Below are positions 56,298 through 60,760 of a stretch of DNA of 64,000 bases, in pieces. The notes beneath the pieces are model-generated. The model searched no databases and was not told the origin of the DNA. It saw only the letters and a program-made list of their open reading frames with translations. The stretch covers positions 78,244,001 to 78,308,000 of the forward strand of contig OZ024741.1 in assembly GCA_964016885.1 (NCBI GenBank). The letters run 5' to 3'. A program made the translations under genes and the position numbers. Position 1 is the first letter of the stretch; every line of letters starts with the position of its first letter. This DNA comes from Eledone cirrhosa (taxonomy: Eukaryota).

Positions 56298-56342
56298 AGT
56301 CATAGTCCTTTCGTCACACACTCTGTGACCTCATCAGTGACT
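56298..56342 (-). ncRNA. Minimal type I hammerhead ribozyme motif
   Basis: AGTCA-CTGATGA-G-GTCACA gagtg TGTGAC-GAAA-GGAC-TA-TGACT: stem I AGTCA/TGACT, stem II GTCACA/TGTGAC. Confidence 0.75.
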
Positions 56343-59268
56343 GGGGATTCCTTTCTTCTATCCTACGCCATTTTGTTTCTGTGTATGTGTTGTGTGCTCA
56401 GTTTGCGCATGCGCCACATCCGGGTGTCTGTGTGTGTTTGTGTTCATTTATCTATTTGTTTATTTATTTATTTATTTATTGTTGGTTGGTTGTTTGTTCT
56501 ATGTGTGTGTGTGTTTTCATTTTGTCCTGTGTGTGTTTTCATTTTGTCCTTAATTGTAAGTTGTTTGTTCTATGTGTGTGTGTGTTTTCATTTTGTCCTG
56601 TGTGTGTTTTCATTTTGTCCTTAATTGTAAGTTGTGATGTTGCTGTTCCACTCATATTTTCTATTTAATTTTGGTTTTAATTCTTTTATGCTTACTGCCT
56701 CTATAATTTGCCTAAACATTGCGTCTTTTCTGTGTGTGGATTCTATTTTTATTTCTATGTTCTCTAATCTACCCCTGTGTTCTATCTTAGCATGTTGGTA
56801 GAGCACAGATGATTCTTTATTATCTTGGAGGTCTCGCCAGTGTTCATTTATTCGTTCCCCTATACTACGAGCTGTCTCACCTATGTACACTATATTTTTG
56901 TTTCTACATTGTCCTTCAGTACATCTTATGCTATACACTACATTTCTAGTTTTACAGTTAATATGGGGGCTTATTTTACAGGTTATACATTTCTTATCTA
57001 TACATGAGGGTCTTTGGAACGGGTATGTCTTGCTAATAAGTGTTTTTACGGAGGTACCTGGTCTTTCTACTATCTTAATATTGAGATTATGTTTATTTAG
57101 GGCCCTTCTAAATTTGTAGGCTAGTTCGCCTTTAGGGGTTGTATTGATGAACATTACACTCTGGTATTTATTGCTATCATACCATGAGTTTATTCTATTG
57201 GCCTTGTTCCTAGTTCTTTCTATTCTATTCCAAAATTTGCTCCTATACAAGGGGCAGGTCCCATTTATGTCATTATTTACCATTTTTTCCCGTTTGGTTC
57301 TGGCTCCTTTATACACTCTGATTCTATCTCTCTGATTGTAGCCAGAGAACTGCATACGGTGGATGAAGTGTTGTATGTGTCTCTCTAGTTCTTCGGGGTT
57401 GCACATGCGGGACACATTTCTCATCACCCGTACCAAATCCGCAATCAGTATGTTGATTTTGGTATGGTCCGAAATGGCCGAGTTTCGGTGGATCAGATGT
57501 TTGGAAGTCATGGGTTTGGCATAATGGGAATGGAGGATTTGTTTTTGGTTGTTAATGGTATCTAACCAGAGCTCTGTGTCTAGTACAGGTAATCGATGGT
57601 TGGGGTGTCTACTTGGGTAGTCTATAGTAACTCTAATGCTCTGGTGGATGGAGTTTGCTATTTGCTGGATGCTTTCCATTGTGTTTTTCTCTAGTTCCTG
57701 ACTGTTCTTTAGTGGGGGTGTCTTAACTACGATGTTTATATCATCTACGTAGCGGGAGTACATTATCAGGGTTAAGCTGTCTTCTAATTGTTCTTTAAGT
57801 TTTTGTTTAAGTCTACTGTCCCACCATACCATGAATAAGTTAGCTATGTCGCCTGCAATGCTAACACCAATGGCTGCTCCTTCCTCTTGGGCATATGTTT
57901 TACCATTAAATTTGAACATATGTTCCTTAAGGGTTAATTTTATGCTGGCCCCTACCGCATGTGCAATCATTTTCTTCAGTTCATCGTGGTTTTCGGGTGT
58001 CCGTATGGCTCTGGTCCACCCGTTCCATCTATCTGTGTGGGTTTTCTTGGCCATTGAGGTAATGGTAGGTGGTCTGCCTCTTGCTGGTCTTGTAGGGCAC
58101 AGGTTGCTAAGGTCATAAGTGTCTAGGTAACTATTACTATGGGTAAGCTTAAGTAGAAGTCCCAGCTCACTGGTATCAATCCCACGGAACTCAACCTTGC
58201 TCTCGCTGATCATTTCTACGCATTTCTCCACAGCAAACTCCATGTCAATAGATGGATACAGGGACACAACATCCATACTGCCTATTATGCAGTTTGTTAG
58301 GTCCCCAGATCGGTTACCCGCGCCGATTCTGCTGAGGAGGTCCTCCGTGCTGTCACATACATCTGGGGACATCTCAATGATGGGGCGTATGATCAGGGAG
58401 AGGAAGTAGGACAGTCTGTAGTTACTAGCAATGTTAGCCCCACAGACTGGCTGTGTTGGTGGTCCCGCGACAGGGTCCCAGCCCGTTTTATGGTCTTTTC
58501 GAAGCCCATACAACGCCGGCACGTCATTGTTCCAGGCCTGGAAGTTGTTGGCAGTCCTTTTGTTGGGCTGCATTATATTCGTCCACATCACCATATGGGC
58601 ATTGAGGGCTTTTTCTCTATCCTCATGCTCCTGTGGTGTTACCTCTCTTGTGTTAGTGATGTGGGGTTGCATTGCCTGGATGTAGTTTGGCAGGCTGTCA
58701 ACCGACATTCTGCCAGACTTGTCTGTTGGAAAACATGCTATCTCTCCATTACGCGAGCGCTGCATGAGCTTACGCAAGCCATTTGCAGATTTTTCTCCCA
58801 GTTGCTGGGCCTCTATTCTATTATGCTTCTTGCTATACTGTTCTATAATATTTCTAAGAAAAGACGCAATGTTTAGGAAAATTACAGAGGCAGTAAGTAT
58901 AAAAGAATTAAAACCAAAATTAAATAGAAAATATGAGTGGAACAGCAACATCACAACTTACAATTAAGGACAAAATGAAAACACACACAGGACAAAATGA
59001 AAACACACACACACATAGAACAAACAACTTACAATTAAGGACAAAATGAAAACACACACAGGACAAAATGAAAACACACACACACATAGAACAAACAACC
59101 AACCAACAATAAATAAATAAATAAATAAACAAATAGATAAATGAACACAAACACACACAGACACCCGGATGTGGTGCATGCGCAAACTGAGCACACAACA
59201 CATACACAGAAACAAAATGGCGTAGGATAGAAGAAAGGAAAGGCACAGAAACAAAGAAAGGAATCCCC

Positions 59269-59313
59269 AGTCACTGATGAGGTCACAGAGTGTGTGATGA
59301 AAGGACTATGACT
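59269..59313 (+). ncRNA. Hammerhead motif in the inverted pLTR
   Basis: Same as 56298-56342 with one C>T at the base of stem II. Confidence 0.7.
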
Positions 59314-59860
59314 ATATATAAACAACTATCTGGTTGTGGAACCAACCAACCAACCAGAAATTTATGAGTTTGTAAATTTGTAAATTTATAAATTTATAAA
59401 TATATAATAAATTGAAGTGAAAGCAACTGGTGCGTGTGTTTCTTATTGGCAACATGACCCTCCCAAAGTATAACAATATCGGTTTCAACACACGATTTCA
59501 GATAAAGAATCTTGCTAAACAAATTCAGAAACGAAATATATATATATAAATATGAAATATAAAAAAAATAATGAATAAAACAATGAAACAGTTCCTTATA
59601 TTAAACAAAAAAAGTTCATTATTTAATGATCGTTTCTAGGACATATATGTGTTAGAATTGGTATGCATATTCAACAGATCTATGTACAAAATTATACAAA
59701 ATTATACAAATTATCAAATAGAATATACATACCAACACATACATATGCCGTCTTCAGAAATAATTTATAAATATATATATATATATATAAATATATATAT
59801 ATAAATATATATATATATATATAAATATATATATATATATATATATATATATATATATAT

Positions 59861-60760
59861 ATATTGTTATACTTGGGGAGGGTCATATTTGTGTAATATT
59901 GCCAGAATTAATAACAGAACACACTCACTGTTTGGTTGGTTTTCGCTTCTCGCTTCTGTGTCTTTTATATCGGTAATCTAATATACTCGGTCCTCAATGT
60001 TGCCATTGACTGACCGGCGGTCAAAAATAATACAGATACAATATAGACACAAACACATATATATAGTTTATCATAAATCTTTCGTTGCACATCTGCAACA
60101 TCGTCAGTGGTACTATATTTTCCTCCTGTTGTATTGTATGTCTACGCCATTTTTATTCAGTCTGTATATATATTTATTTATTTATTTGCTTGTTTGTTTA
60201 TTTTATTTTGTCTTCTTTGCGCATGCGTTTGCGTGTGTGTATAGTGTTTTGTTTGCTGTGTGATGGGTGACTAGTGTGTGTTTATGTGCTTGTTGTTATT
60301 GTGCTTGTGTATGTATTTATTTATTTATTTTATTTTATTTACTTATTTATACTTCTCTTAGGTCAGTGTTGTTTGTTTGGGTGTTGTTGTTATTCCATTC
60401 ATTCTTTCTGTTTAGCCTTGGTCTTCTAATTTCTATTTCACTGGCCTCTCTGATTTGCCTATCTGCTGGGTCATTTCTATGTTTAGATATTATTCTAATT
60501 TCTATGTTGTCTATGTTACCGTCATGTTGTTGTCTAGCATGTTCGTATAGTACTGACCCGTTTTCTGGCAATATTACACAAATATGACCCTCCCCAAGTA
60601 TAACAATATATATATATATATATATATATATATATATATATATATATATATATATATATATATATATATATTTATATATATATATTTATATATATATATA
60701 TATATTTATATATATATATTTGTCTCGACACACGATTTCATATAAAAAACCTCGCAAAAC
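59861..60760 (-). mobile_element. Second Penelope-like subfamily, 3' end with inverted terminal segment
   Basis: ORF 60347-60571 is a diverged GIY-YIG C-terminus (SVLYEHA..RQIREA..PRLNRKNEWN); 59861-59908 inverted at 60562-60608. Confidence 0.85.
60069..60112 (-). ncRNA. Hammerhead motif of the second PLE subfamily
   Basis: TACCA-CTGACGA-T-GTTGCA gatg TGCAAC-GAAA-GATT-TA-TGATA. Confidence 0.7.

What the first reader, a model, noticed from the sequence alone, without database searches (positions are those of the whole stretch)
56298..60112. Variant minimal hammerheads with an extra core nucleotide and covarying helix II across PLE subfamilies
Seen: subfamily 1 (56298-56342, 59269-59313; relatives at 43804-43847 and 45396-45439) has CTGA(T/A)GA-G-GTCACA/TGTGAC-GAAA. 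Subfamily 2 (60069-60112) has CTGACGA-T-GTTGCA/TGCAAC-GAAA. Helix II shows compensatory changes and both have one unpaired base after A9. Helix III is a hexamer too short to close (AGGACT, AGAACT, AGATTT), and the predicted sites are CUA, CUU and UUA. Established: PLE hammerheads are minimal and can cleave as dimers. Inference: a distinct dimer-dependent hammerhead variant that standard models may miss. With 9.7 kb and 37.2 kb, at least four sequence families occur in one window.
Basis: partly seen in the sequence, partly recalled or inferred. Interest (0 to 1): 0.75.

Follow-up and report, generated by a model that had tools for sequence, protein, structure and literature searches.

The report
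Penelope retroelement hammerheads, weak pairing stem
These are real copies of the small self-cutting-type RNA motif that Penelope-like jumping genes are already known to carry, extra letter included; they likely cut only slowly and with a partner or helper protein, and the only mild surprises are their number (over 30,000) and a partner-pairing stem predicted to be weak.

Summary
The motifs are real (5 hits in the window, 0.05 expected) and lie in the terminal repeats of two related Penelope-like element (PLE) subfamilies, with 19,810 and 11,222 exact genomic matches. The claimed novelty is not new: Cervera and de la Peña 2014 list the extra base after A9, long helix II, short helix I and covarying families as the norm (54 of 56 aligned motifs; the base is in their descriptor). 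Two of the four subfamily-1 window copies are decayed, and the two flanking the ORF lie on opposite strands, so they cannot pair in cis. Lineage variants avoid the core and paired positions (0 of 33 vs 11 of 79 flank columns). Residual oddities: the extra base is G in subfamily 1, and the commonest helix III (AGAACU, 24,839 vs 227 for palindromic AGAUCU) pairs poorly as a dimer. 72 of 90 copies run through the cut site; 5' ends cluster 56-77 nt upstream of the core. Cleavage is untested. The scan noted this kind before in other genomes. New member of a known kind.

The parts
56298..56342 (-). Subfamily-1 type I hammerhead, intact: 5-bp helix I, CUGAUGA, extra G, 6-bp helix II, GAAA, helix III hexamer AGGACU, predicted cut after CUA (between 56303 and 56302)
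59269..59313 (+). Subfamily-1 hammerhead in the inverted copy of the element's 3' end; C11.1 to U (G.U pair)
60069..60112 (-). Subfamily-2 hammerhead: extra U, helix II GUUGCA/UGCAAC, helix III AGAUUU, site UUA; helix I 2 bp plus predicted distal stem
45395..45439 (-). Subfamily-1 hammerhead (AGAACU, site CUU) in a short 3'-end copy that begins at the ATGGCG block
43804..43847 (+). Decayed subfamily-1 hammerhead (C11.1 to U, G15.2 lost) in a short 3'-end copy
56621..58856 (-). 5'-truncated PLE ORF: RT (PF00078 E 1.8e-4) and C-terminal GIY-YIG (PF01541 E 3e-4), both under the curated cut-offs; CX4CxxC linker as in Neptune/Nematis
56148..56620 (-). 3' pseudo-LTR of the subfamily-1 element, ending at the ORF-start tail beside a (TA)n tract
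58857..59527 (+). Inverted copy of the element's 3' end (ORF end, pLTR, tail)
59850..60564 (-). 3' fragment of a subfamily-2 PLE (ORF end and pLTR), 88% identical to a full-length tandem unit (L204)
59213..59225 (+). AAAATGGCGTAG block shared by both subfamilies, 44-57 nt upstream of C3; 5' ends of short copies cluster here (likely transcription start, inferred; YY1-like by recall)
37190..37275 (-). Unrelated repeat family with a conventional type I hammerhead, no extra base, 4-bp helix III with triloop, GUC site, long helix I
9777..9860 (+). Decayed hammerhead of an old repeat family with a long helix II insert

Best explanation
These are type I hammerhead ribozyme motifs in the terminal repeats of two related Penelope-like retrotransposon subfamilies, of the kind described in 2014, and they likely self-cleave only slowly, when two copies are brought together with help from the element's own protein. 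Shown: the anatomy, the place in the pLTR about 200 nt before the next ORF start, the copy number, the constancy of core and helices across lineages, and that most copies run through the cut site. Inferred: transcription starts about 56-77 nt upstream of the core; helix III (2 bp, 2-nt loop) cannot close in one copy; two copies, from a 4.1-kb tandem transcript or two RNAs held by the RT-endonuclease protein, would swap helix III strands and cut after the NUH triplet; because that stem is weak and cutting slow, reverse transcription from the downstream tail mostly uses uncut RNA. Cutting would process tandem read-through RNA only occasionally.
For: PLE context: RT plus C-terminal GIY-YIG ORF; full-length tandem units of about 4.1 kb for both subfamilies. 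Match to published features: extra base, G10.1-C11.1, long helix II, short helix I. Selection: among 63 copies anchored outside the motif, variants at >=10% hit 0 of 33 core or paired columns, 4 of 12 tolerant columns and 11 of 79 flank columns (Fisher p 0.003 and 0.017); 13 of 13 core bases are the same between subfamilies, whose non-motif pLTR is 233 of 422 identical and whose proteins are 67% identical; two compensatory helix II pairs. Closing helix III in a monomer costs about 5.5 kcal/mol even for one pair. Uncut templates: 72 of 90 3'-anchored copies span the cut site, 1 begins within 3 nt of it; 15 of 55 mapped 5' ends fall in 25 nt at the ATGGCG block against 2 at the cut site. Literature: Schistosoma motif inactive as monomer and weak as dimer; Anolis PLE hammerhead cuts only with the PLE protein, and uncut RNA is the main template.
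Against: No cleavage was measured. The commonest helix III, AGAACU (24,839 matches vs 227 for AGAUCU), gives a predicted dimer duplex of +2.4 kcal/mol against -1.7 for the published ACGU and -5.0 for AGAUCU, so dimers do not look strongly selected; AGGACU (-1.7) and AGAUUU (+0.2) are better. Free folding of two copies gives helix II kissing forms, not a double hammerhead. Close pairs are mostly on opposite strands (13 divergent, 2 convergent, 2 same-strand among 17 pairs within 6 kb in the first 100 matches). A minor U16.1-to-C form exists (2 of 30; about 8% of depth in run X4). The tolerant/constrained split and the 25-nt window were chosen after seeing the data, and some 5' ends are two sides of one inversion.
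Confidence: 0.58

Rival explanations
1. Protein-assisted monomer: the element's protein folds one copy into the active core, with helix III held as 2 bp and a 2-nt loop or left frayed; no second hammerhead is needed.
For: The two loop bases drift among AA, GA, AG and AU without becoming self-complementary, while 15.1-16.1 and 15.2-16.2 stay paired. The Anolis motif needs protein.
Against: A 2-nt loop is strained; AGAUUU and AGGACU are compatible with dimers; the Anolis assay did not, in the text I read, separate monomer from protein-bridged dimer.
Confidence: 0.2
2. One reading: a distinct, RNA-only, dimer-dependent variant defined by the extra base, cutting efficiently in tandem transcripts.
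For: Extra base fixed (G in 63 of 63, U in 30 of 30); tandem arrays exist; Rfam misses the motif.
Against: The extra base is in 54 of 56 published PLE motifs and in the published descriptor; mismatched helix III; copies rarely start at the cut site.
Confidence: 0.08
3. The motif is kept for a non-catalytic job, such as a protein-binding or promoter-proximal RNA structure, and no longer cuts.
For: Templates were mostly uncut; hammerhead mutants did not affect Anolis insertion in vitro; G as extra base and weak helices I and III would lower activity (G effect recalled from de la Peña and Flores 2001, not read).
Against: All catalytic bases and an H at position 17 are kept in both subfamilies while N7, loops and position 17 vary freely among allowed letters, the pattern expected of selection on chemistry.
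Confidence: 0.14

Closest known systems
Hammerheads of metazoan PLE pseudo-LTRs (Cervera and de la Peña 2014, PMC4209133; read: main text parts 1-2 of 4 and all of supplementary file 2; file 1 not searchable)
   Same: Type I layout in the pLTR, extra base between 9 and 10.1, G10.1-C11.1, long helix II, short helix I, many covarying families per genome, pairs on opposite strands, predicted dimer action.
   Different: Four bases, not two, between A15.1 and U16.1 (their 'variant' class, not the strict min-HHR); the loop is not self-complementary in the commonest form; extra base G in subfamily 1 (1 of 54 in their alignment); at least 31,000 exact matches against about 9,000 in the richest genome named in the text I read.
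Six-base helix III variants in the same paper (Drosophila virilis AUAUAU, Oikopleura AGAUCU, Marsupenaeus AGCGCU)
   Same: Two base pairs plus two middle bases in helix III; 2-bp helix I in D. virilis, like subfamily 2.
   Different: Those are perfect palindromes; here AGAACU and AGGACU would leave tandem A.A or G.A mismatches and AGAUUU uses G.U pairs.
Anolis Poseidon (PAc) hammerhead (PMC11167929; read: passages and second half of the main text)
   Same: PLE pLTR hammerhead upstream of an internal RT start; uncut RNA as main template.
   Different: There the ORF starts inside helix II and protein-assisted cleavage was measured; here the ORF starts about 200 nt downstream and nothing was measured.
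Small PLE hammerheads that cleave as dimers (Lünse, Weinberg and Breaker, RNA Biol, PMC5785218; not held, seen only as title and as summarised in PMC6765202)
   Same: Very short stem III, type I, PLE-linked.
   Different: Could not be compared; it may already show mismatched stem III forms.

Membership tests
Type I hammerhead ribozyme | Core CUGANGA / GAAA / NUH with C3-G8 and A15.1-U16.1 | tested here: met
Type I hammerhead ribozyme | Helix II closed by G10.1-C11.1, with covariation | tested here: met
   two compensatory pairs between subfamilies; G.U in two decayed window copies
Type I hammerhead ribozyme | Helix I flanking core and cut site | tested here: inconclusive
   4-5 bp in subfamily 1; only 2 bp plus a marginal distal stem in subfamily 2
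Type I hammerhead ribozyme | Self-cleavage at the NUH site | not testable with these tools
   no assay possible
Metazoan PLE hammerheads (2014) | Located in the pLTR of an RT + GIY-YIG element | tested here: met
Metazoan PLE hammerheads (2014) | One base between A9 and G10.1 (consensus H) | tested here: met
   present in all; U in subfamily 2, G in subfamily 1, which is outside the H consensus but seen in 1 of 54 published rows
Metazoan PLE hammerheads (2014) | Palindromic 15.2-16.2 and loop 3 | tested here: inconclusive
   15.2-16.2 pairs (G-C or G.U); loop self-complementary only in AGAUUU, not in AGAACU or AGGACU
Strict min-HHR descriptor (Fig. S7 of 2014 paper) | gaaannuh: two bases between A15.1 and U16.1 | tested here: not met
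   four bases here; filed under the paper's short-helix-III variants instead
Rfam hammerhead families | Match to a curated model | tested here: not met
   none among 57 hits at E<=10
Neptune/Nematis-type PLE | C-terminal GIY-YIG with CX2-5CxxC linker; (TA)n targets | tested here: met
   CIDKKCITC linker read from the ORF, features from PMC8557442 passages
Neptune/Nematis-type PLE | RT tree placement | not tested
   no reference set on hand

The most novel reading that the evidence does not exclude
The most successful PLE lineages in this genome carry a hammerhead deliberately unable to dimerise on its own (mismatched AGAACU helix III, G as extra base, 2-bp helix I in subfamily 2) yet with its catalytic core under selection: a protein-gated ribozyme switched on only inside the element's own ribonucleoprotein, so that RNA stays uncut as template until late.
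Probability: 0.22. Interest if true: 0.55.

Novelty: new member of a known kind. Interest (0 to 1): 0.24.

Why it matters
The role of PLE hammerheads is still open: they are near universal in these elements yet cut poorly. This genome offers tens of thousands of copies with natural helix III variants of graded dimer strength (AGGACU, AGAUUU, AGAACU) and a readable record of where templates began, so it is convenient material for testing dimer versus protein-assisted cleavage. The motif itself, extra base included, is not new.

Tried and rejected
Rfam scan: no hammerhead hit. Sequencing runs: no RNA holder listed among 6 runs; contigs of four runs of unrecorded kind laid on 56256-56440 showed the same family variants and cannot speak to expression or cleavage. 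First flank pattern for subfamily 2 had a miscounted gap and found nothing (corrected). A search for further families with GTR at the start of helix II gave 13 matches, fewer than the 39 of the reversed control. A looser search gave 1,047 matches against 173 control and showed other families, some without the extra base. Alternative register for subfamily 1 (extra G pairing with C11.1, G10.1 bulged) is 4.4 kcal/mol worse and the homologous base is U in subfamily 2, so rejected. Cis pairing of 56337 and 59274 rejected: opposite strands. No PLE ORF could be tied to the 9.78-kb family; for the 37.2-kb family 1 of 20 loci (L139) has a GIY-YIG-like fragment 282 nt upstream, a weak hint. The Lünse et al. 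paper is not held. Paper searches found no description of these motifs in a cephalopod, which was only my untested guess of the host; absence from that library proves little.

Full report
Observation. A fuller descriptor that also demands helix I, the 15.2-16.2 pair and UH gives five hits in the window (56337-, 59274+, 45434-, 60107-, 37248-) against a mean of 0.05 in 100 Markov controls. Rfam reports no hammerhead among 57 hits at E<=10.

Context. The 56337 motif lies in the 3' pseudo-LTR of an ORF on the minus strand with weak RT and GIY-YIG Pfam matches and a CX4CxxC linker, the layout given for Neptune and Nematis PLEs in passages of PMC8557442. The ORF is 5'-truncated and joined to an inverted copy of its own 3' end at 58857-59527, so the two flanking motifs face away from each other on opposite strands. 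The 60107 motif is in a 3' fragment of a second subfamily whose protein is 67% identical. Full-length tandem units of about 4.1 kb exist for both; in the subfamily-2 units the ORF starts about 200 nt downstream of the motif. Exact matches number 19,810 and 11,222 in the 3.0-Gb genome, reversed controls 0. Among the first 100 subfamily-1 matches, 17 neighbour pairs lie within 6 kb: 13 divergent, 2 convergent, 2 same-strand.

Selection. Copies decay neutrally, so the test is on lineage variants. In the 63 of 90 copies (anchored on the pLTR 3' end) that span the motif, variants at 10% or more occur at loop II, loop III, position 17 and the last helix I pair, and at none of 33 core or paired columns; flanks have 11 of 79 (Fisher p 0.017; classes assigned after viewing). 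Thirty flank-anchored copies of each subfamily agree. Between the window's two subfamily copies all 13 core bases match; the motif is 30 of 44 identical, the adjacent flanks 38 of 91 and 37 of 76. Helix II has two compensatory pairs, both on the one branch between subfamilies (12 hand-picked rows, not independent). Against: a minor U16.1-to-C form and a 2-bp helix I in subfamily 2, rescued only marginally by a distal A/U stem.

Prior description. Cervera and de la Peña 2014 (PMC4209133; main text parts 1-2 of 4, supplementary file 2 whole, file 1 not searchable) state the conserved base between positions 9 and 10.1, long helix II, short helix I, covarying consensus families, opposite-strand pairs and weak dimer cleavage. 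By my count 54 of 56 aligned motifs have the extra base, G in one; 9 have a six-base helix III, all self-complementary. Their descriptor allows the extra base but only two bases between A15.1 and U16.1, so it would miss these motifs. An extra A at this place in a viroid hammerhead lowers the rate moderately (passage in PMC3376415); a strong penalty for G is recalled, not read. Passages of PMC6765202 and PMC3088659 repeat the palindrome-dimer model. Passages of PMC6155905, PMC12531169 and bioRxiv 10.64898/2026.07.22.740005 added nothing decisive. Lünse et al. was not available.

What differs. The extra base is G in 63 of 63 subfamily-1 copies. The commonest helix III in both subfamilies is AGAACU, 24,839 matches against 227 for the palindrome AGAUCU. 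Predicted self-duplex energies are +2.4 (AGAACU), +0.2 (AGAUUU), -1.7 (AGGACU), against -1.7 for published ACGU, +1.6 for AUAU and -5.0 for AGAUCU; so AGAACU is weak but not far outside the published range. A monomer cannot close the helix cheaply.

Templates. Prompted by earlier scan notes, I mapped 5' ends of the first 90 of 17,980 matches to the subfamily-1 3' end. 72 span the cut site, 1 begins within 3 nt of it and 17 begin downstream. Of 55 ends inside the reference, 15 fall in 25 nt at the AAGATGGCG block 56-77 nt upstream of C3 and 2 in 25 nt around the cut site (window chosen post hoc, some ends share an inversion; the signal is less clear in 49 subfamily-2 copies). This fits a transcription start there and uncut templates, as shown in vitro for the Anolis element, whose hammerhead cuts only with the element's protein (PMC11167929, second half of main text). 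Religated circles could explain long copies but not those that stop at the start site.

Other families. The 37.2-kb motif is a conventional type I hammerhead without the extra base (at least 47 matches). The 9.78-kb motif is a decayed copy of an old family with a long helix II insert (at least 74 matches). Looser searches show further families with and without the extra base.

Verdict. Real, selected, ordinary: a new member of the known PLE hammerheads, best explained as a slow, partner- or protein-assisted self-cleaver. Cleavage, the start site and the dimer step are inferred. Interest 0.24.

Noticed in passing
window 59177-59225 (+), 56362-56412 (-), 60142-60225 (-): Both subfamilies keep an AAAATGGCGTAG block and a GCGCATGCGC-type palindrome upstream of the hammerhead in otherwise diverged pLTRs; YY1-like and NRF1-like by recall, likely the internal promoter.
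   Followed up: partly
window 9777-9860 and L142-L160: In this old family many copies read CCGAUGA rather than CUGAUGA (U4C) with CCA/CTG decay forms, a roughly 40-nt insert in helix II and a GUC site; copies come as tight inverted pairs.
   Followed up: partly
window 37016-37680: Inverted pair of a repeat with a conventional, probably monomer-competent type I hammerhead; the second copy (37497 +) has lost the GAAA by a short deletion.
   Followed up: partly
L052 (two motifs 469 nt apart, minus strand): Two identical hammerheads without extra base and with ACUAGU helix III in direct repeat; could be a retrozyme-like tandem.
   Followed up: no
L062, L067-L069, L071, L077, L079, L085, L086, L088; L070, L081, L083, L090; L031, L080, L084: At least three more hammerhead families: extra A with GGGAC helix II and loopless AUAU-type helix III (like the Crassostrea row of the 2014 alignment), no extra base with AAUCGAUU palindrome, and extra A/U with ACGU.
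   Followed up: no
L204-L205 (G000:C1:14380000-14397999): Four tandem subfamily-2 units of 4,147 nt, each with the same frameshift, followed by an inverted 3' end.
   Followed up: partly
window 46348-55730, 61200-63368, 17954-20804: Several fragments of another RT-encoding non-LTR element beside (TA)n and (GAT)n tracts, and a decayed LTR-type RT/integrase region; class names are by eye.
   Followed up: no
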